Source: a virus. Taken from it: a stretch of DNA of 39,521 nucleotides. The notes under the pieces were generated by a model. That model was not told where the DNA came from. It did no database searches and worked only from the letters and a program-made list of their open reading frames with translations. The stretch lies in UHGV virus genome UHGV-0321984; one strand, given 5' to 3'. Within the stretch, counting starts at the first letter, position 1, and each line of letters begins with the position of its first letter. The translations under genes and the position numbers were made by a program. Shown piece after piece: positions 3,801-14,910 of the stretch.

Positions 3801-4087
3801 CCTTCCGCCACCTCTTTCATTTCCAAATAAATTTGCCACACTTCTTCTGGATTCGAAGACATCCATGAAGAAGCATCAAAATACTCACCAGTCGCAAAAT
3901 ATCCATCTTCGAATGCAATCTCAAAAAATCTGATCATGTTCATAACATTCTGCTTTTCGCTATCAGTGGCGACCCAATACATTGAACGTTCACCGCTATC
4001 TATATGAATCTTTATTAATTCTCTAACCTTAACGAGTTTTCTTTCTAGCAGAAAACCATCGATCAAAGTTTTTATTTTTTTGATCAT
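3797..4087 (-). CDS. Hypothetical protein (about 97 aa; the track's longer version runs to 4165)
   Basis: The ORF's internal ATG at 4087 avoids a 68-nt overlap with the upstream gene. Confidence 0.45.
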   Translation of the reverse strand: MIKKIKTLIDGFLLERKLVKVRELIKIHIDSGERSMYWVATDSEKQNVMNMIRFFEIAFEDGYFATGEYFDASSWMSSNPEEVWQIYLEMKEVAEG

Positions 4088-4097
4088 CCGATTGAAC

Positions 4098-4772
4098 CTA
4101 CACTTTCTCGACTGGCACAGCAAACGGCCAGTAGTTTTCATCTGCTGATTTAATCGTAAGTTCATCTAATTTTGCGACAAAACCTTTTCTAGGTTCTTTT
4201 GTAGGAAATATTCTAGTTTCATCACTTGTGATCTCATAATGTAGATACAAATACTCTGTTTTAAGCTCCGCTGCCTCTTCATCCCAAACTTCATATGGTA
4301 GTCTCACATAATACAACGGTTCTTTCTCGACCTCGTAGCCGTCTTTCATGCGGATGAGGGTTTCGATTGGATTGTTTTCAGCATTATCAAGCCAATTTTC
4401 AAAATCTGTCTCGTGTGGGTATCTTTTACCGTCCAATTCTCTGATTTTCGTAAAAATCGCTAAATCTAATGCATGTTTGTTATCCTCAAACCAATCCGCC
4501 ACAAACTTCGGCATAACGTGTTTCTGCGGTTCACCAGTCTTACCAAATACAGCATTATCTAAAGTGTTTCTCAAGCTTTGTGCCGATTCAGGATAAGCCT
4601 CAGCTACCTTATTCCAAGCTTGTTCGTCTGTAATTTTTGATTCATTTAGTCTTTTCACCAACTTTAAAGATACTTCATAAGCGCCGTACCTTCCTTGACC
4701 ATGCTCATCCATAGCGTTCTCATAACTCTTTACATATTTAGCAAATTCATTAATCAATTCTTGTTTATTCAT
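4098..4772 (-). CDS. Hypothetical phage protein (224 aa)
   Basis: Long ORF, RBS AGGAGG. No confidently recognised domain. Confidence 0.55.
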   Translation of the reverse strand: MNKQELINEFAKYVKSYENAMDEHGQGRYGAYEVSLKLVKRLNESKITDEQAWNKVAEAYPESAQSLRNTLDNAVFGKTGEPQKHVMPKFVADWFEDNKHALDLAIFTKIRELDGKRYPHETDFENWLDNAENNPIETLIRMKDGYEVEKEPLYYVRLPYEVWDEEAAELKTEYLYLHYEITSDETRIFPTKEPRKGFVAKLDELTIKSADENYWPFAVPVEKV

Positions 4773-9891: not shown

Positions 9892-10076
9892 AATCTAATC
9901 TCCCTATTTTTTATTTCTAGCATTCTCAAATCCTCAAGTTCAGAAGCGATTAGTTCAGCTTGTCTATCTGATAGCTCATCGGCTTTTCTAAGCGCTTCAC
10001 GATCATCTTGTAATTGTTTCCTGCGTTGTTTAATCAAACGGAGAATTTGATGTTCTTGTTGCAATGTGTAGGACAT
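9888..10076 (-). CDS. Hypothetical coiled-coil protein (62 aa)
   Basis: ORF, RBS AAAGGAGAA. Confidence 0.45.
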   Translation of the reverse strand: MSYTLQQEHQILRLIKQRRKQLQDDREALRKADELSDRQAELIASELEDLRMLEIKNREIRL

Positions 10077-10096
10077 AAAATCATTCTCCTTTGCCT

Positions 10097-10381
10097 TTAG
10101 AACTCAAAGTTTTCTTTCAAAAATCTTTGGAGTTCTGATCGTTCAATTCTGATGTCTAACTTACTCCACTGCTGTGTTTTTAAGCCTAGGTTTATCCAAT
10201 GTGCTAATTTGTCATCACCAATGCCTAAAACTTTTTTTACCTCTGATTTGTTTGGATATGGAGGAAGCTCCACTGATTTATTCATAAGGTGTAATCGTTC
10301 TTCCAAAGAATTAAGCACTGCATTCGTGATTTGTGTAGTTAATTCGGAAACTACTAAATTATCTGGAATTGTTATTTGCAT
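10097..10381 (-). CDS. Hypothetical protein, possibly DNA-binding (94 aa)
   Basis: ORF, RBS AAAGGAGAAAAA. HTH-like segment SEVKKVLGIGDDKLAHWINLGL. Confidence 0.45.
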   Translation of the reverse strand: MQITIPDNLVVSELTTQITNAVLNSLEERLHLMNKSVELPPYPNKSEVKKVLGIGDDKLAHWINLGLKTQQWSKLDIRIERSELQRFLKENFEF

Positions 10382-10571
10382 AATTTTTCTCCTTTTCTAA
10401 TTCTGCTAGCACTGCCTCAATTGGCTTGATTTGTTTATCTGGCTTTCTACGTCCATTCATAATATCCGACATGTATGCTGTTGAAATACCAAGCTTTTCA
10501 GCTAACCAAGCTTGACTCTTGTCATGCGTAGCTAGCGCCACACGCACTTTTAAAATGAAGTCCTGCGACAT
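10359..10571 (-). CDS. XRE-family HTH protein (Cro-like)
   Basis: WLAEKLGISTAYMSDIMNGRRKP is a helix-turn-helix of the XRE type. Confidence 0.6.
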   Translation of the reverse strand: MSQDFILKVRVALATHDKSQAWLAEKLGISTAYMSDIMNGRRKPDKQIKPIEAVLAELEKEKNYANNNSR

Positions 10572-10573
10572 AA

Positions 10574-11350
10574 CTATCTCTCCTCTAATAGATCAATTTC
10601 TGGAATATATCCTTCTTTTTTTAGCGACTCATAAATGAACAAACGTCCTTTTTGAGTCCATTTAGTATTCATCACAACTTTTGTTCCGCCATCAGATTTC
10701 GGAATCTCAGTTGTATGAGATTTTGTATATCCTTGTCTCATATGTTTCTTACATAATAACCATTGATTGCCTACTTTTTTCTGAATACCTAGTTTATGAA
10801 GTAATTTATTCATCTGTTGTGGAGACATCCCATAATCTGCTGCAATCTGACTAATTGTTACTGAATCTGTAGAAGATAATATGCTATCTAAATACGAAAT
10901 TTTGGGTTCGTATTCTGCAATTTTTTGTTCTGCGATTAGTCTTCCAGTACGTTCTTCTTTCAACTTAGTTGCTAATTGGATGATTGTATCTGGATTAAGC
11001 AAAGCTTCTTCTACTTTTTCTGGAGTTAGATAACCTCCATGTTTTCTAATTGCTGGCAACACTTCACTTGTTACCCATCGTTTGAATTTTTTGGCAGAAG
11101 GAAGTTTTGATTTTAAGATTAAACTATAAAGGCCTGACTCGTTGATGATCGTCATCTCTCTTGATTGACCTGAGGTCGTGATTCGCGACCCCATCTTATC
11201 TTCCAAATCTACATGCCGCGACAAAGCATCTTTAGTGTTTGAATAACCTAAAACACTCGCAATGTCTTTACCTACAAAATATGGTTCATCATTTACTAAA
11301 ATGGTCCGAACTTCGTTTTGTTCAAAATTAAAAATTTGTGGTGTGTTCAT
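10574..11350 (-). CDS. Phage antirepressor (Bro-N plus KilA-C domains)
   Basis: N-terminal Bro-N signature (IFNFEQNEVRTILVNDEPYFVGKDIASVLGYSN) and a C-terminal KilA-C-like region. Start taken at ATG 11350 with RBS AAAGGAATGA; the track's longer ORF runs to 11380. Confidence 0.75.
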   Translation of the reverse strand: MNTPQIFNFEQNEVRTILVNDEPYFVGKDIASVLGYSNTKDALSRHVDLEDKMGSRITTSGQSREMTIINESGLYSLILKSKLPSAKKFKRWVTSEVLPAIRKHGGYLTPEKVEEALLNPDTIIQLATKLKEERTGRLIAEQKIAEYEPKISYLDSILSSTDSVTISQIAADYGMSPQQMNKLLHKLGIQKKVGNQWLLCKKHMRQGYTKSHTTEIPKSDGGTKVVMNTKWTQKGRLFIYESLKKEGYIPEIDLLEER

Positions 11351-11402
11351 TTTTTCATTCCTTTCTTTGATATAATTCACTTGTGAAAGTGAGGTGATAA
11401 AA
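11351..11402. promoter_or_regulatory. Compact bidirectional promoter/RBS module, copy 1
   Basis: TCATTCCTTTCTTTGATATAATT...GAAAGTGAGGTGA. Minus-strand RBS for the antirepressor, plus-strand TATAAT, and plus RBS GAGGTG for ORF 11403. About 80% identical to copy 2. Confidence 0.45.
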
Positions 11403-11828
11403 ATGGATACGAAAGAATACTTTGAAATTTATTCAGTTATAATAAATGTGTTTGAAAAAAATAATCCTAAAGATATGTTTGATTTATTTTCAGAGCTTCA
11501 TGATACAGATTTCATCCAATCAAGATTGAAGAATGGTTTTCCTCCTAAAGAGCTATCTAAATTTACGCTAGATACCGTAGATAATTTACTTTCAGACGGT
11601 TTGATTAAAGGCAAAAAGATTACTACAAAATCTGGTCCTATTTACATGTTTGATGGAATGACTACAGAAGGACGAAAGTTTCTATTGAATACAAACAATA
11701 AATCTAGTCAATTTGTTGAATACGTTAGGGATAACGGAATACCATTAGACCCAACTTCGATTTCAAAAGCTGTAATTAATTTTCTGTACTTTGTTTTTCG
11801 TAAGAAGCCGCAACAAAACTTAAGTTGA
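11403..11828 (+). CDS. Hypothetical protein (about 142 aa), rightward gene inside the early region
   Basis: Long ORF with RBS GAGGTGA 7 nt upstream of ATG 11403. Confidence 0.5.
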   Translation: MDTKEYFEIYSVIINVFEKNNPKDMFDLFSELHDTDFIQSRLKNGFPPKELSKFTLDTVDNLLSDGLIKGKKITTKSGPIYMFDGMTTEGRKFLLNTNNKSSQFVEYVRDNGIPLDPTSISKAVINFLYFVFRKKPQQNLS

Positions 11829-11964
11829 CTATCACTTGTTCAGGTGATAGTTCTTCTATTTTTACAGAATCTTCAATTACAAACTCCAACTTAAATCCAT
11901 CAATGTAAACAGCCCTTTCTGTTTCAACGACTTTATGACTTGGTTTTGGATACTCAAAAGGCAT
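11776..11964 (-). CDS. Hypothetical protein (62 aa)
   Basis: ORF whose 5' region (AAAGAAAGGAATGAGCAA-ATG) repeats the antirepressor RBS module. Confidence 0.4.
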   Translation of the reverse strand: MPFEYPKPSHKVVETERAVYIDGFKLEFVIEDSVKIEELSPEQVIVNLSFVAASYEKQSTEN

Positions 11965-12018
11965 TTGCTCATTCCTTTCTTTGGTATAATTTTGAATAGA
12001 AAGTGAGGTGAAAATAGT
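11965..12018. promoter_or_regulatory. Compact bidirectional promoter/RBS module, copy 2
   Basis: TCATTCCTTTCTTTGGTATAATT...GAAAGTGAGGTGA between divergent ORFs 11964(-) and 12019(+). Confidence 0.45.
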
Positions 12019-12240
12019 ATGGAAGAATTTAATATGGATGTCGATGCCTTATTCAAACAAACCGTATTCAAGACTGTTAATAAAGAATTCAAAATAGATT
12101 TCCAAAATGACGAATCTTTTCCAACAGAAATTGAGTTATTCGAAGAATTTTCTCGGAATGTTTCTGAGTCTTTTTCTCGCCAGTTGCAAAAGAATTTTTT
12201 TGATGCTCTTGTGGATGAATTTCATCAACAACAGCACTAA
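12019..12240 (+). CDS. Hypothetical acidic protein (73 aa)
   Basis: Module TATAAT plus RBS GAGGTG upstream. Intrinsic terminator immediately downstream. Confidence 0.45.
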   Translation: MEEFNMDVDALFKQTVFKTVNKEFKIDFQNDESFPTEIELFEEFSRNVSESFSRQLQKNFFDALVDEFHQQQH

Positions 12241-12310
12241 ACTTTTGGTCTTTAAAATTTAAAGTTATTAAAGCTCCTTTTGCGGAAGGAGTTTTTTTAT
12301 TTTGTTTCAT
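12089..12310 (-). CDS. Doubtful antisense ORF (73 aa) fully overlapping 12019..12240
   Basis: Perfect SD AAAGGAGG 7 nt before ATG 12310. However, it is in the antisense frame that is most often open by chance, and it reads through the plus-strand terminator. Confidence 0.2.
   Translation of the reverse strand: MKQNKKTPSAKGALITLNFKDQKFSAVVDEIHPQEHQKNSFATGEKKTQKHSEKILRITQFLLEKIRHFGNLF
12274..12304 (+). terminator. Rho-independent terminator
   Basis: CTCCTT-TTGCGG-AAGGAG stem followed by TTTTTTTATTTTG. Confidence 0.6.
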
Positions 12311-12337
12311 GATTTTTCCTCCTTTTCTTTAAATATG

Positions 12338-12570
12338 TAAGCTAATAAAATTAGCTAATTTTATTGACAGTTTCTAAAAAGTTTTGTAGAATAAGTGCAT
12401 AGTTAAATAAGCACAGAATTACCCTATAAATTAACATTCTAAGTTTCCCGACCTTGAATTTGTTTACTTTATTAGGTGTCTTTCTTATTGCTTGTTAGCT
12501 TATTAAATTAGCTTACGAACATATATTACTATAAAGTTTTGTAGATGTCAACGATTATCTACAAAGTTTT
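12338..12570. promoter_or_regulatory. Genetic-switch operator cluster
   Basis: Palindrome AGCTAAT-AAA-ATTAGCT (12342-12358). TTAGCTTA direct pair (12496-12517). AAGTTTTGTAGA at 12381 and 12535. Palindrome TTGTAGAT-N10-ATCTACAA (12539-12564). Confidence 0.45.
12364..12392 (+). promoter_or_regulatory. Repressor (lysogeny) promoter
   Basis: TTGACA, 17 nt, TAGAAT; near-consensus. Overlapped by an AAGTTTTGTAGA operator copy. Confidence 0.55.
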
Positions 12571-12607
12571 TAAGATGTGTTTTAGGCATGATCGGAGAAT
12601 CATTATT

Positions 12608-12955
12608 ATGACAACATTTGAGAGAGTAAAAATGTTAGCAGATAAACGCAAAATATCTATTGTCGAATTGGAAGAAAAACTTAATTTTAGTAAAAATTCA
12701 CTTTATGCGTGGAAAAAGAGTAAGCCATCCATTGATAAACTAAATGCAGTTGCTGACTATTTCCATGTTTCAACAGATTATTTGCTAGGACGCACAGATG
12801 ATCCTAACGCGGGAGTTGCACCAGAGGAAAGAAAACTAACCGTGGAAGAAGCTTTAGCATCTGTTATGAGTAGCGACGGAAAACCGCTCACCGATAATGA
12901 TAGGGAAATACTATCAGCTATGATTGAAGCATATTTAGAGAAAAAAGATAACTAA
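12608..12955 (+). CDS. XRE-family phage repressor (CI/ImmR-like), about 115 aa
   Basis: HTH: MLADKRKISIVELEEKLNFSKNSLYAWKK. No S24 peptidase domain. Start taken at ATG 12608 (RBS GGAG); the track's longer ORF starts at 12545 inside the operator. Confidence 0.7.
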   Translation: MTTFERVKMLADKRKISIVELEEKLNFSKNSLYAWKKSKPSIDKLNAVADYFHVSTDYLLGRTDDPNAGVAPEERKLTVEEALASVMSSDGKPLTDNDREILSAMIEAYLEKKDN

Positions 12956-12963
12956 ATAAGTAG

Positions 12964-13386
12964 GTGAGTCATTTGGACAGTCAAATTGAAATGATAATTA
13001 ATGAACTCGGCGTTAAGGTAGAAGAGCGTGAAAACCTTGATGCCGATGGCCATTATGTTGCTTGTATGAATACCATAGTAATAAAAGCTAATTTATCTAA
13101 GTATAGAAGACAAAGAACCTTATTACATGAATTAGGACACGCTTCTAAACATCATGATAATTATTTTTTATATAATTTAGCATTCTCTCTCCATTCAAAA
13201 ATGGAATATGAGGCTGATCGCTTCATGATTGAAAAATTATTAGATAGATATATTGCAAAGTCTGAATTAGAACCACACAATATCAATTACATGAAATTTA
13301 TAGAAGATAACAATTTAAGCGTTCGCTTCGAACCACTTGTGAAAGAATTATTAAAAGCTCGCATCTATTGTTATGCAGCTCTCTAA
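12964..13386 (+). CDS. ImmA/IrrE-family metallopeptidase (anti-repressor protease)
   Basis: HEXXH motif LLHELGHASKHH. Immediately downstream of the XRE repressor, as in ICEBs1 immR-immA. The true start may be TTG 12973. Confidence 0.7.
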   Translation: MSHLDSQIEMIINELGVKVEERENLDADGHYVACMNTIVIKANLSKYRRQRTLLHELGHASKHHDNYFLYNLAFSLHSKMEYEADRFMIEKLLDRYIAKSELEPHNINYMKFIEDNNLSVRFEPLVKELLKARIYCYAAL

Positions 13387-13404
13387 AATTTTTTAAGCAA
13401 AAAA

Positions 13405-13416
13405 GAACATATGTTC
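13405..13416. promoter_or_regulatory. SOS-box-like palindrome GAACATATGTTC
   Basis: Perfect GAAC-N4-GTTC core (AGAACATATGTTCA) 22 nt upstream of the RBS of ORF 13439. Confidence 0.35.
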
Positions 13417-13438
13417 AAAAATAGAAAGGTGAAAAAAA

Positions 13439-13750
13439 ATGATATATACAGAATTCAAAGAATGGTTAGAAAAAAACACAACCGGATACGAAACATTTAT
13501 CATCAAAGCTACTAATTATCAAATTGAAAAAAACAAAAATAGACCCCCAAAAAAACGCTGGGATGATAAGAAAATAGATAAAGCTGTATTAGAAATGTGG
13601 AAACAAGTCGTGACTAACTTGTATCAAACAATTCGTAAAGAAAAAGGAGTTCCATTAATTAACGGGAGGGAAATATGGCTTGAATTTATAGAGGAACAAG
13701 GACTGATCGAATTTTTCAATGATAGCATGGCAGAATTAGAATTTGAATAG
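13439..13750 (+). CDS. Hypothetical protein (103 aa) between immA and int
   Basis: ORF with RBS AAAGGTGA. Confidence 0.5.
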   Translation: MIYTEFKEWLEKNTTGYETFIIKATNYQIEKNKNRPPKKRWDDKKIDKAVLEMWKQVVTNLYQTIRKEKGVPLINGREIWLEFIEEQGLIEFFNDSMAELEFE

Positions 13751-13758
13751 GGGTAATA

Positions 13759-14910
13759 TTGATGGCAATGATAAAACAATATAAAAAGAAAAATGGCGAA
13801 AAAGCATGGTACTTTAAAACTTATCTCGGTATTGATCCGCTAACAGGAAAGAAAAAATATACTACTAAAAGAGGATTTAGAACACAAAAAGAAGCAAAAA
13901 CAGCACTTTCTAGGTTAGAACTAGAATTACAAAAAACAGGAATGCCCACAAGTACAAATACTACTTTCAAAGAAGCAGCAGAATTATGGCTAGAAAGCTA
14001 TAAAAAAACTGTAAAAGAAAGTTCATATTCAAGGACTAAAATAATCTTTAACAAACATATATATCCCAAATTTGGAAATATTAAGCTTTCTAAAATTAAT
14101 ACGGCATATTGTCAAAAGGTAGTAAATGATTGGAGTGAAAAAGGAACTTCAAAGCAGTACCCTCTTTTCATAAACTATATGAACAAAGTTTTTAAGTATG
14201 CTATAAATATTGGTTTAACATCTGATAATCCAACATTAAATTTACTTATTCCAAAGCCACAAATTAAAACAGAAAAGAAATTAAAATTATATACAAAAGA
14301 ACAGTTGGAATTATTTCTAAATGAAGTATCTCAAGAACAGAATCTATATTTTAAAAACAGAGACTATACGCTCTTTAGACTATTAGCATTCAGCGGATGT
14401 AGAATCGGCGAAATATTAGCACTCACTTGGGACAATATTAATTTTAAAACAAATGAAATGGCCATTAAAAAAACTGTAGCTCGTTCAGATAAATATTATA
14501 TATCTGAAACTCCTAAAACCAAAAAATCAAATCGAATAATTTATTTAGATGAAAAAACTATAAAGCAACTAAAATTTTGGAAGCTCGAACAAAGAAAGTA
14601 CTTATTTCAATTAGGATTTACTAAAGCTAATTATTTGTTTACCAATGACGAAAATAATTTCACAATTAATCAGTCAGTGGCAGAAAGATACAATATATAT
14701 CGTGAGCGTGCCGGCTTACCTTATATCGGTCTACATGGTTTTAGACATACACATGCATCAATGCTATATGAGGCAGGCGCAGATCACAAAGAAGTCCAAG
14801 AAAGAATGGGCCACGCAAATATAAAAACTACTATGGACACATATACACACATTACTAACAGCAAAAAAGAAGAAACAACACAAAAACTAACAAATTATAT
14901 TAACTTCTAA
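13759..14910 (+). CDS. int: Tyrosine site-specific integrase
   Basis: 383 aa. N-terminal arm-binding-like domain. C-terminal catalytic R...HxxR...Y signature (LHGFRHTHASMLYEAG...GHANIKTTMDTYTHI). Confidence 0.9.
   Translation: MMAMIKQYKKKNGEKAWYFKTYLGIDPLTGKKKYTTKRGFRTQKEAKTALSRLELELQKTGMPTSTNTTFKEAAELWLESYKKTVKESSYSRTKIIFNKHIYPKFGNIKLSKINTAYCQKVVNDWSEKGTSKQYPLFINYMNKVFKYAINIGLTSDNPTLNLLIPKPQIKTEKKLKLYTKEQLELFLNEVSQEQNLYFKNRDYTLFRLLAFSGCRIGEILALTWDNINFKTNEMAIKKTVARSDKYYISETPKTKKSNRIIYLDEKTIKQLKFWKLEQRKYLFQLGFTKANYLFTNDENNFTINQSVAERYNIYRERAGLPYIGLHGFRHTHASMLYEAGADHKEVQERMGHANIKTTMDTYTHITNSKKEETTQKLTNYINF

What the first reader, a model, noticed from the sequence alone, without database searches (positions are those of the whole stretch)
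11351..12310. Duplicated compact bidirectional promoter-RBS module; rightward genes embedded in the leftward early operon; an antisense ORF pair
Two intergenic units of about 52 bp (11351-11402 and 11965-12018) are about 80% identical in non-coding DNA. The shared cores are TCATTCCTTTCTTTG(A/G)TATAATT and GAAAGTGAGGTGA. Each unit serves a minus-strand gene (RBS AAAGAAAGGAATGA; the antirepressor and ORF 11964) and a plus-strand gene (TATAAT plus RBS GAGGTG; ORFs 11403 and 12019). The two -10 elements appear to overlap back to back (GATATAATTC read both ways). Plus-oriented genes inside the lytic early region between the repressor and the antirepressor are unusual. The conserved cores look like binding sites for one regulator controlling both directions. 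In addition, the 73-aa plus ORF 12019..12240 is fully overlapped by a 73-aa minus ORF with a perfect SD (AAAGGAGG-N7-ATG at 12310).
Basis: seen in the sequence. Interest (0 to 1): 0.55.

Follow-up and report, generated by a model that had tools for sequence, protein, structure and literature searches.

The report
Stacked reverse-facing accessory gene cassettes
Two small accessory genes in an Enterococcus prophage point against the early lytic operon, and each sits behind the same compact junction of a ribosome-binding site and a promoter; this layout is common in enterococcal and streptococcal prophages, so it is a useful marker for a variable gene slot but not a new mechanism.

Summary
Units 11348-11402 and 11962-12018 are colinear and about 80% identical, and their flanking coding sequences are unrelated.

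Each unit joins two expression signals. On the bottom strand it holds the Shine-Dalgarno AGAAAGGA, 8 nt before the ATG of the next early gene (the antirepressor or a 62-aa gene). On the top strand it holds an extended -10 promoter, TTTG(A/G)TATAAT, with no -35. That promoter precedes a ~20-nt leader, a small rightward gene and an intrinsic terminator.

The exact 21-mer occurs in 77 IMG/VR contigs, ahead of at least 14 unrelated small genes. Antirepressor genes with no divergent gene lack the TGnTATAAT.

The 141-aa gene (a DUF2513-like winged helix) and the 62-aa gene form a convergent pair. The pair is conserved in Streptococcus pyogenes phage T12-type prophages. Published dRNA-seq of a lysogen maps start sites at the equivalent junctions, in the lysogeny direction only.

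I found no bottom-strand -10 and no sign of a shared operator.

In the antisense 73-aa pair, substitution patterns favour the top-strand ORF. The bottom-strand ORF keeps a strong SD and ATG in several lineages but is broken in one, so its status is unresolved.

Verdict: ordinary moron-type cassettes at a recombination-prone junction.

The parts
10574..11350 (-). Antirepressor gene (BRO-N plus KilAC/ANT domains). Its start is the ATG at 11350.
   Evidence: Pfam Bro-N 1.6e-28 and ANT 2.2e-34. PHROG 130 at 1.4e-107. Homologues start at MNTPQIF.
11351..11402 (.). Junction module, copy 1. Bottom-strand SD AGAAAGGA lies at 11366-11359, 8 nt before the ant ATG. Top-strand extended -10 is TG at 11368-11369 plus TATAAT at 11371-11376. 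The predicted start site is about 11383. The top-strand SD GAAAGTGAGGTGA is at 11385-11397.
   Evidence: The exact 21-mer is in 77 IMG/VR contigs. The TGnTATAAT co-occurs with a divergent ORF.
11403..11828 (+). 141-aa gene for a DUF2513/PadR-like winged-helix protein (PHROG 5126).
   Evidence: PHROG 5126 at 1e-29. 25 of 34 family members hit PF10711. The AF2 model has pLDDT 86, and its best Foldseek hits are PadR and RTP. Homologous to T12 gp08.
11827..11852 (+). Intrinsic terminator of the 141-aa cassette. It lies inside the coding region of the 62-aa gene.
   Evidence: Terminator scan: 11-bp stem plus T-run. RNAfold dG is -12.3.
11776..11964 (-). 62-aa early-direction gene (PHROG 4345). It converges on the 141-aa gene and overlaps its 3' end by 53 nt.
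   Evidence: PHROG 4345 at 5.6e-10. Homologous to T12 gp07, in the same convergent arrangement.
11965..12018 (.). Junction module, copy 2. Bottom-strand SD lies at 11980-11973, 8 nt before the ATG at 11964. The extended -10 is TG at 11982-11983 plus TATAAT at 11985-11990. The predicted start site is about 11997. The top-strand SD is at 11999-12011.
12019..12240 (+). 73-aa acidic protein gene (pI 4.4), family unknown. This is the better supported member of the antisense pair.
   Evidence: Differences from L086 by codon position 1/2/3 are 6/6/13 in the overlap and 3/2/8 outside it. The ORF is intact in lineages where the bottom-strand ORF is broken. There are 17 homologous clusters in E. faecium and E. 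mundtii.
12270..12295 (+). Intrinsic terminator of the 73-aa cassette, placed just before the genetic switch.
   Evidence: RNAfold dG is -11.8. It is conserved with the cassette in every context.
12089..12310 (-). 73-aa antisense ORF with a strong SD (12326-12318). It may be translated, but it shows no protein-level conservation.
   Evidence: SD plus ATG is kept in the window, EH-TP1, E. mundtii prophages and L086. It is lost or frameshifted in L051, L083-85 and L087. Its second codon positions are the most variable class. Its coding look is mostly a by-product of the top-strand protein's composition.
12523..12551 (-). Predicted early lytic promoter (TTGACA-17-TAATAT). It would have to supply leftward transcription of the 62-aa gene and ant, through both cassettes.
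   Evidence: Promoter scan, 10 of 12 matches. The same site is present in B1578, and EH-TP1 has an equivalent.

Best explanation
The repeated ~52-bp unit is a compact divergent gene junction that holds two near-consensus expression signals side by side.

On the bottom strand it provides the Shine-Dalgarno AGAAAGGA, 8 nt upstream of the start codon of the next early gene. That gene is ant for copy 1 and the 62-aa gene for copy 2. One base further on, the top strand carries a -35-less extended -10 promoter, TTTG(A/G)TATAAT. It should start a transcript about 7 nt downstream, giving a ~20-nt leader with SD GAGGTGA, one small gene and an intrinsic terminator.

Each rightward gene is therefore an autonomous promoter-gene-terminator cassette, in other words a moron. 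It is oriented like cI and int, so it should be expressed from the repressed prophage.

The leftward genes have no promoter in the unit. They are read from the early promoter at 12551-12523, through the cassettes.

The unit occurs twice because two such junctions flank the conserved convergent pair (141-aa winged-helix gene and 62-aa gene). The layout is ant <- J -> 141aa | 62aa <- J -> 73aa. The second junction carries its own variable cargo.

The near identity of the junctions comes partly from strong functional constraint, since almost every base belongs to an SD or a -10. It also comes from their use as a homologous crossover point, through which cargo genes and left-hand genes are reshuffled among Enterococcus prophages.

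Shown here: the anatomy, the mosaic distribution, the link between promoter motif and divergent gene, the terminators, and start-site mapping in a homologous streptococcal prophage. Inferred: promoter activity and lysogenic expression in this phage, and recombination as the origin.
For: - The repeat is real and colinear.
- Each rightward ORF is followed by a top-strand terminator.
- Close relatives carry one junction with a different cargo: EH-TP1 has the 73-aa gene only, and B1578 has a 66-aa PHROG 6930 gene.
- The exact 21-mer is found in 77 IMG/VR contigs. It precedes at least 14 unrelated small genes, including a PD-Lambda-3_B/HEPN-like gene and a DUF1883 gene. On its left it abuts ant, a second antirepressor family, or 60-67-aa genes.
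- L007 and L076 have the same two-junction layout with other genes.
- Anchoring on ant instead of on the module gave 57 distinct upstream regions. TGnTATAAT plus a divergent ORF occurs in 18, neither in 34, and mixed cases in 5 (Fisher p = 7e-10). Close ant relatives without cargo keep the SD half only.
- The 141-aa/62-aa convergent pair and both flanking junctions recur in L177 and in S. pyogenes T12 and Javan515.
- dRNA-seq of the S. pyogenes S119 lysogen maps primary start sites exactly at these junction promoters (tgctataat and tggtataat, 5' UTRs of 18-25 nt, monocistronic units). It maps none for the interleaved early-direction genes (PMC6431027 Tables S2 and S5).
- In E. faecium, 98% of mapped start sites have tgnTAtaaT (PMC7724050).
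Against: - There are no transcript data for this phage or for any Enterococcus phage carrying the module. A search of the E. faecium dRNA-seq supplements for the motif found nothing.
- The link between promoter motif and divergent gene is inflated by shared ancestry. Only about 4-5 independent junction types carry it.
- Several cargo genes in relatives lack a clear terminator.
- The strict conservation of the 21-mer next to ant proteins only 58-60% identical could also reflect an extra, unseen function.
- The strong SD and ATG at 12310 are not explained by this model.
Confidence: 0.75

Rival explanations
1. One reading: the unit is a true bidirectional promoter with overlapping back-to-back -10 boxes. 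Its conserved cores are operators for one regulator that controls both directions.
For: The unit is very well conserved next to divergent genes. An imperfect inverted repeat, CTTTC-N-GAAAG, brackets the -10 in both copies. A 6-bp inverted repeat, TCACTT-N4-AAGTGA, lies between the -10 and the SD of the winged-helix gene, and its arms are kept in L177 while its loop changes. The adjacent gene encodes a probable DNA-binding winged helix.
Against: The scan finds no bottom-strand promoter, and the bottom-strand hexamers are TATATC and TATACC. The CTTTC/GAAAG symmetry is simply two SDs on opposite strands. The TCACTT repeat is absent from copy 2. Most relatives with the same module have no winged-helix gene. 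In the homologous S. pyogenes prophage, start sites at these junctions are unidirectional in the lysogen.
Confidence: 0.07
2. The main job of the rightward promoter is to guard the antirepressor. RNA polymerase sitting and firing head-on at the ant start, plus the antisense transcript, would damp leaky early transcription into ant in lysogens. The cargo genes are passengers.
For: In most loci the junction abuts an antirepressor start, including a second, unrelated antirepressor family in L062. Distant ant homologues (50-63% identity) have non-identical TGnTATAAT plus a divergent gene at the same place. From my own knowledge: antirepressors are classically held in check by antisense RNAs (P22 sar, P1 c4), and convergent promoters interfere with one another (coliphage 186).
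Against: Many close ant relatives have no such promoter at all (L089, L092, L093, L095, L108, L148). The same junction also precedes non-ant genes. The predicted transcript starts about 17 nt beyond the ant SD and runs away from it, so it cannot pair with the ant RBS. Copy 2 guards a 62-aa gene, not ant.
Confidence: 0.12
3. For the antisense pair: the bottom-strand ORF 12310..12089 is a genuine first early gene. Either it is real instead of the top-strand ORF, or both are real and the segment is dual-coding.
For: It has a perfect SD with 7-nt spacing. The SD, ATG and open frame travel with the cassette into other contexts. In those contexts it sits 6-30 nt after the stop of the upstream early gene (L080 and L086). 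It stays open in L077, where the top-strand ORF has a stop. Its codon-usage score of 0.24 bits per codon is like that of real genes. An open antisense run this long is uncommon: 2.4% in codon shuffles, and 1.6% of runs in real genes. GenBank annotates it in EH-TP1.
Against: In the overlap, its second codon positions are the most variable class (13, against 6 and 6, versus L086). It has lost its ATG and is frameshifted or stopped in the L051, L083-85 and L087 lineage, where the top-strand ORF is intact. Given the top-strand protein sequence, an open antisense frame is expected 19% of the time, and its codon score is reached by 6% of synonymous recodings. It has no family hits.
Confidence: 0.2
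4. The two units resemble each other by chance, or through a recent local tandem duplication.
For: SD and -10 consensus elements are universal, so unrelated junctions converge in part. T12 has CCTCCTTTCTGTGGTATAATTT, for example. Three of the 5 hits in representative genomes look like chance.
Against: Two hits were found against 0.01 expected. Register and spacing are identical. The flanks are unrelated, so this is not a duplication of a larger segment. The identical 21-mer sits in many different gene contexts. The two-junction layout around the same gene pair is ancestral.
Confidence: 0.02

Closest known systems
Morons: autonomous promoter-gene-terminator insertions in temperate phage genomes (Juhala et al. 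2000 and Hendrix et al. 2000; from my own knowledge)
   Same: Each rightward gene has its own promoter motif and its own intrinsic terminator. Each is present, absent or swapped between otherwise near-identical phages. Each is oriented for expression from the repressed prophage. GC is slightly lower than in the neighbours.
   Different: The cassettes sit inside the early lytic operon, in antisense orientation. Different cargos share one conserved promoter/SD junction instead of each bringing its own promoter. The function of the cargos is unknown.
Early regions of S. pyogenes prophages T12, 315.2 and Javan515 (phi5005.1 type): gp05 to gp09 with alternating orientation
   Same: They carry homologues of the 141-aa and 62-aa genes as the same convergent, 3'-overlapping pair. 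Each reverse gene starts behind TGnTATAAT, which abuts the SD and start of the neighbouring early gene. Start sites and monocistronic units are mapped in a lysogen.
   Different: Protein identity is only 37-44%. The junction sequences are similar in design but are not the same 21-mer. The neighbour is an HTH gene rather than an antirepressor, and the second cargo differs (gp06, a 199-aa protein).
P22 immI region (mnt, Pant, arc, ant, sar antisense RNA) and P1/P7 c4-icd-ant (from my own knowledge)
   Same: An antirepressor gene has an oppositely directed promoter right at its 5' end. In the window, a divergently transcribed putative DNA-binding protein lies next to ant.
   Different: No dedicated ant promoter is found. 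The predicted antisense transcript does not cover the ant RBS. No arc-like gene is present. The neighbour gene varies between phages and is usually not a DNA-binding protein.
Variable accessory loci marked by a conserved promoter or neighbour, such as anti-CRISPR acr-aca operons and the P2/P4 defence hotspots (from my own knowledge)
   Same: A fixed genomic slot with a conserved flank holds many unrelated small genes. One cargo is a known defence-type gene (PD-Lambda-3_B-like).
   Different: None of the window genes hits a defence model. No anti-defence function has been shown. The resemblance is one of organisation only.

Membership tests
Moron (autonomous phage accessory cassette) | Own promoter directly upstream of the gene | tested here: met
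   TGATATAAT at 11368-11376 and TGGTATAAT at 11982-11990. The motif co-occurs with divergent ORFs. The orthologous promoter has a mapped start site in S. pyogenes. Activity in this phage has not been measured.
Moron (autonomous phage accessory cassette) | Own transcription terminator directly downstream | tested here: met
   Top-strand hairpin plus T-run at 11827-11852 and 12270-12295. The scan found 4 terminators in the region against 1.1 expected. RNAfold dG is about -12 for both.
Moron (autonomous phage accessory cassette) | Present, absent or replaced between otherwise closely related phages | tested here: met
   B1578 and EH-TP1 compared with the window. At least 14 cargo families sit behind the same 21-mer. 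Cargo-less relatives also exist.
Moron (autonomous phage accessory cassette) | Expressed from the repressed prophage | not testable with these tools
   Only indirect support: homologous genes SP119_1048, SP119_1050 and SP119_1046 have primary start sites in an uninduced S. pyogenes lysogen.
Bidirectional (back-to-back) promoter | A recognisable -10 on each strand within the unit | tested here: not met
   The scan finds no bottom-strand site. The bottom-strand hexamers are TATATC and TATACC, and they differ between the two copies.
Bidirectional (back-to-back) promoter | Start sites in both directions | not testable with these tools
   In the homologous S. pyogenes prophage only the lysogeny-direction start sites are seen, but only uninduced cells were assayed.
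P22 immI-type antisense control of the antirepressor | Antisense RNA complementary to the ant ribosome-binding site | tested here: not met
   The predicted start site (about 11383) lies 17 nt beyond the ant SD (11366-11359) and points away from it (by analogy).
P22 immI-type antisense control of the antirepressor | A dedicated ant promoter with a divergent maintenance repressor | tested here: inconclusive
   No ant promoter was found. A divergent winged-helix gene is present in the window, but it is absent from most relatives that carry the same junction.
DUF2513 / PadR-like winged-helix proteins (the 141-aa gene) | Match to PF10711 or a related winged-helix family | tested here: inconclusive
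   The window protein itself has no Pfam hit at E < 0.1. However, 25 of 34 aligned family members hit PF10711, with a best E of 1.9e-11.
DUF2513 / PadR-like winged-helix proteins (the 141-aa gene) | Winged-helix fold | tested here: met
   The AF2 model has pLDDT 86 with helices followed by a beta-hairpin wing. The top Foldseek hits are PadR, RTP and the F93 winged helix, with probability 0.9-1.0 but E only about 0.01 and TM 0.4-0.6.
Antisense overlapping (dual-coding) gene pair | Both frames open, each with its own start signals | tested here: met
Antisense overlapping (dual-coding) gene pair | Purifying selection detectable in both frames, and both ORFs kept in all lineages | tested here: not met
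   Variation peaks at the third position of the top-strand codons, which is the second position of the bottom-strand codons. The bottom-strand ORF is broken in the L051, L083 and L087 lineage. The top-strand ORF is broken only in L077 and L026.
BRO-N/KilAC antirepressor (left neighbour) | Bro-N and ANT domains | tested here: met

The most novel reading that the evidence does not exclude
The junction may be more than SD plus promoter. It could be a shared control point bound by the DUF2513 winged-helix protein, acting like Mnt or an Aca. That would tie silencing of the antirepressor to expression of a swappable set of accessory (defence or anti-defence) genes. In addition, the 73-aa cassette could be a truly dual-coding segment whose bottom-strand ORF is a functional first early protein.
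Probability: 0.08. Interest if true: 0.6.

Novelty: new member of a known kind. Interest (0 to 1): 0.3.

Why it matters
The practical value is a simple sequence handle. The motif CATTCCTTTCTTTGRTATAAT, next to the antirepressor start, marks a hypervariable slot in Enterococcus prophages. That slot holds at least 14 families of small genes of unknown function that are probably expressed in lysogens. One cargo is related to a known defence gene, and one is a winged-helix protein conserved as far as S. pyogenes phages. This makes the slot a sensible place to look for superinfection-exclusion, defence or anti-defence genes in a clinically important genus. The case also shows how two consensus signals packed into about 20 bp can serve as a portable crossover point for mosaic phage evolution. 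It does not reveal a new regulatory principle.

Tried and rejected
- Rfam scan of 10000-13500 found no meaningful RNA family; the only match was a chance snoRNA hit at E = 0.6.
- Pfam, PHROG and PADLOC gave nothing for either 73-aa ORF. PADLOC gave nothing for the 141-aa and 62-aa genes.
- tblastn of both 73-aa ORFs against GenBank phages found only EH-TP1, so that collection has too little divergence to use.
- The k-mer-based homologue search for the 141-aa protein returned only 3 clusters. The exhaustive HMMER search was needed.
- The genome-contig scan with the 21-mer gave only 5 hits. Two are phage-related: one in Aerococcus, and a 606-bp contaminant contig in a Flavobacterium assembly. 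Three look like chance, so the scan gave no taxonomic picture.
- The literature has nothing functional on DUF2513 and nothing on the Enterococcus module. The E. faecium dRNA-seq supplements do not contain the motif.
- A weak bottom-strand promoter-like site at 12044-12016 (9 of 12 matches) was dismissed as within chance expectation.
- I considered that ribosomes starting at 12310 might stop the terminator hairpin from halting the early transcript, or might protect it from polarity. L051 and L087 keep SD, GTG and 18 codons across the hairpin. However, L083 has lost the start, the bottom-strand hairpin has only a poor U-tract, and no comparable ORF covers the 141-aa cassette. The idea remains unsupported.
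Full report
**Context.** The window is an Enterococcus temperate phage. Its flanks are 98% identical to Enterococcus phage vB_ElaS_B1578 and 88% identical to E. hirae phage EH-TP1. On the top strand lie the integrase (13759-14910), an ImmA-like metallopeptidase (12964-13386) and a cI-like HTH repressor (12608-12955). The early lytic genes run on the bottom strand. They include the BRO-N/KilAC antirepressor (11350..10574) and a Cro-like HTH (10571..10359).

**Check of the observation.** The repeat finder returns a 30-nt pair (11348-11377 and 11962-11991, 90% identical) and a 16-nt pair (11385-11400 and 11999-12014, 94%). Both pairs have a spacing of 614 nt, so the two units are colinear, and 40 of 50 positions match. 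The core CATTCCTTTCTTTGRTATAAT occurs twice in the window against 0.01 expected. The similarity begins at the CAT start codons of the two leftward genes and ends at the SDs of the two rightward genes. The flanking coding sequences are unrelated.

**Anatomy of the unit.** The bottom strand of each unit reads AGAAAGGA, 8 nt before the ATG of ant (copy 1) or of the 62-aa gene (copy 2). That sequence is complementary to the 16S 3' end. One base further on, the top strand reads TG-N-TATAAT (11368-11376 and 11982-11990), with no -35. Then come about 20 nt, the SD GAGGTGA and the ATG of the rightward gene. The only base that differs between the two copies inside the 21-mer is the free N of TGnTATAAT. 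Each rightward ORF is followed by a top-strand hairpin plus T-run, at 11827-11852 and 12270-12295 (dG about -12). The scan finds no bottom-strand promoter in either unit, and the bottom-strand hexamers are TATATC and TATACC. The best leftward promoter is in the switch, at 12551-12523.

**The genes.**
- The 141-aa gene belongs to PHROG 5126. An exhaustive search found about 50 representative clusters, and 25 of 34 aligned members hit DUF2513. The AlphaFold model (pLDDT 86) is helical with a beta-hairpin wing, and its best Foldseek hits are PadR and RTP winged-helix proteins.
- The 62-aa gene belongs to PHROG 4345.
- Neither 73-aa ORF matches any family. The top-strand product is acidic (pI 4.4) and the bottom-strand product is basic (pI 10.0).

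**Close relatives.** EH-TP1 has a single junction, placed between ant and the 73-aa cassette. B1578 has a single junction followed by a different 66-aa gene (PHROG 6930), plus an unannotated first early ORF (PHROG 38261). A scan of IMG/VR found the exact 21-mer in 77 contigs.
- To its right lie at least 14 unrelated small genes. They include a DUF1883 protein and a PD-Lambda-3_B/HEPN-like protein.
- To its left lies mostly the ant start. A second antirepressor family and several 60-67-aa genes also occur there.
- L007 and L076 repeat the two-junction layout with different genes. L071 is the same phage type as the window.

**Unbiased anchor on ant.** I then searched with the antirepressor protein instead of the module, which gave 57 distinct upstream regions. 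Eighteen have TGnTATAAT within 57 nt together with a divergent ORF. Thirty-four have neither, 2 have the motif only (a lost start codon in one, a deleted cargo in the other), and 3 have an ORF only. Fisher's test gives p = 7e-10, but this is inflated by relatedness. Close ant relatives without cargo keep the SD half (CTTTCCTTTCTT) and lack the -10. A few distant ant homologues carry non-identical TGnTATAAT plus a divergent gene.

**Deeper homology and experimental support.** The 141-aa and 62-aa genes recur as the same convergent, 3'-overlapping pair at two evolutionary distances.
- In a prophage whose winged-helix protein is 83% identical (L177), both junctions are variants of the module.
- At 37-44% identity, the pair appears in S. 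pyogenes T12 (gp08 and gp07), 315.2 and the Javan phages. There the early region alternates + and - genes, and each reverse gene sits behind TGnTATAAT next to the SD of its neighbour.

Published dRNA-seq of the S. pyogenes S119 lysogen (PMC6431027, Tables S2 and S5) maps primary start sites at exactly these promoters.
- pyotss0484 belongs to the winged-helix homologue SP119_1048 (tgctataat, 5' UTR 18 nt).
- pyotss0485 belongs to SP119_1050, beside the 62-aa homologue (tggtataat, 5' UTR 20 nt).
- pyotss0483 belongs to SP119_1046 (11,609 reads).

Each of these is a monocistronic unit. No start site is listed for the interleaved early-direction genes SP119_1047, 1049 and 1051. In E. faecium, 98% of mapped start sites carry tgnTAtaaT (PMC7724050).

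**Interpretation.** The unit is an SD for the next early gene fused to a -35-less extended -10 promoter for a reverse-facing, self-terminated accessory gene. It is not a bidirectional promoter, and nothing requires a shared operator. The two copies flank an old two-gene module, and the second junction carries its own swappable cargo. The exact 21-mer appears in many gene contexts, which fits its use as a short homologous crossover point. Because almost every base is part of a consensus signal, selection also keeps the copies alike. Reverse genes in this region are normal for streptococcal and enterococcal prophages.

**The antisense pair.** Six divergent lineages of the cassette were compared.
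- The top-strand ORF is intact everywhere except L077 (a stop codon) and L026 (a 1-nt deletion).
- The bottom-strand ORF keeps SD, ATG and an open frame in the window, EH-TP1, E. mundtii prophages (a different genomic context) and L086.
- It has lost its ATG and is frameshifted or stopped in L051, L083-85 and L087.
- Against L086, differences in the overlap fall 6/6/13 on top-strand codon positions 1/2/3. The most variable class is therefore the second position of the bottom-strand codons.
- Codon-usage scores are similar for the two ORFs (0.25 and 0.24 bits per codon).
- Given the E/F/K-rich top-strand protein, an open antisense frame arises 19% of the time. Its score is reached by 6% of synonymous recodings.

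I conclude that the top-strand ORF is the selected gene (about 85%). The bottom-strand ORF may be translated, but it shows no protein-level constraint, and about 20% is the chance that it is a functional gene.

**Verdict.** This is a new member of a known kind: moron-type cassettes at a conserved junction. Interest is modest and lies mainly in using the junction as a locator for accessory genes of Enterococcus prophages.

Noticed in passing
window 12364-12392 (+) and 12551-12523 (-): The two best promoter matches in the lysis-lysogeny switch face each other rather than standing back to back. The predicted transcripts would overlap by about 117 nt. The same geometry is seen in B1578 and in EH-TP1, which has a different immunity type. 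It recalls the convergent pR/pL promoters of coliphages 186 and P2.
   Followed up: partly
window 12337-12358 and 12495-12516: Two 22-nt palindromic boxes (GTAAGCTAATAAAATTAGCTAA) are 86% complementary to each other. One lies at the predicted 5' end of the early transcript, and the other lies just upstream of the SD at 12318-12326. They are conserved in EH-TP1 although its repressor differs. They may therefore not be cI operators, and they could pair in the early leader RNA.
   Followed up: no
L001 3380-3427; also L007, L010, L014, L031, L048 and others, directly after the module: Many cargo genes in relatives (not in the window) share a ~45-nt leader, TTCTTATCAGTRWGTGGTCTACTGAAATAAT...ATAAGGTGGTG. 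It contains a small hairpin (CAGT...ACTG, CAG...CTG) that seems to co-vary. In some cases a second pairing (CCTTATCA with TGATAAGG) would cover the SD.
   Followed up: no
window 11403-11964; L168 (T12) 4030-4614; L177 2501-3074: The DUF2513-like winged-helix gene and the 62-69-aa acidic gene form a convergent pair with overlapping 3' ends. The pair is conserved from Enterococcus phages to S. pyogenes and S. agalactiae phages at 37-44% identity, which suggests a functional couple of unknown role. In the window, the terminator of the 141-aa gene lies inside the coding region of the 62-aa gene.
   Followed up: partly
L062 10293-12149: In this relative the same slot holds a 266-aa Hypoth_Ymh/HEPN protein that matches the defence component PD-Lambda-3_B (E = 1e-78). 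It is divergent from an antirepressor of a different family (PHROG 373).
   Followed up: partly
PQ554527.1 (hit H1); L173 (NZ_QNVY02000016.1): The record named 'Acinetobacter phage D2SVT' is 98% identical to an Enterococcus phage over this region. A 606-bp contig in a Flavobacterium petrolei assembly is an Enterococcus phage fragment. Both look like host mislabelling or contamination.
   Followed up: no
L001 3600-3830 (-); L002 3429-3650 (-): There are two annotation discrepancies in GenBank. PQ283533 leaves the first early ORF (76 aa, PHROG 38261, E = 1.6e-54) unannotated. PQ571301 annotates the bottom-strand 73-aa ORF rather than the better supported top-strand one.
   Followed up: yes
L174 2140-2917: A 64%-identical homologue of the winged-helix gene sits outside a phage, next to a 2044-aa Eco57I/SNF2-type protein and a MobL relaxase. 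It again lies behind a TGCTATAAT extended -10.
   Followed up: no
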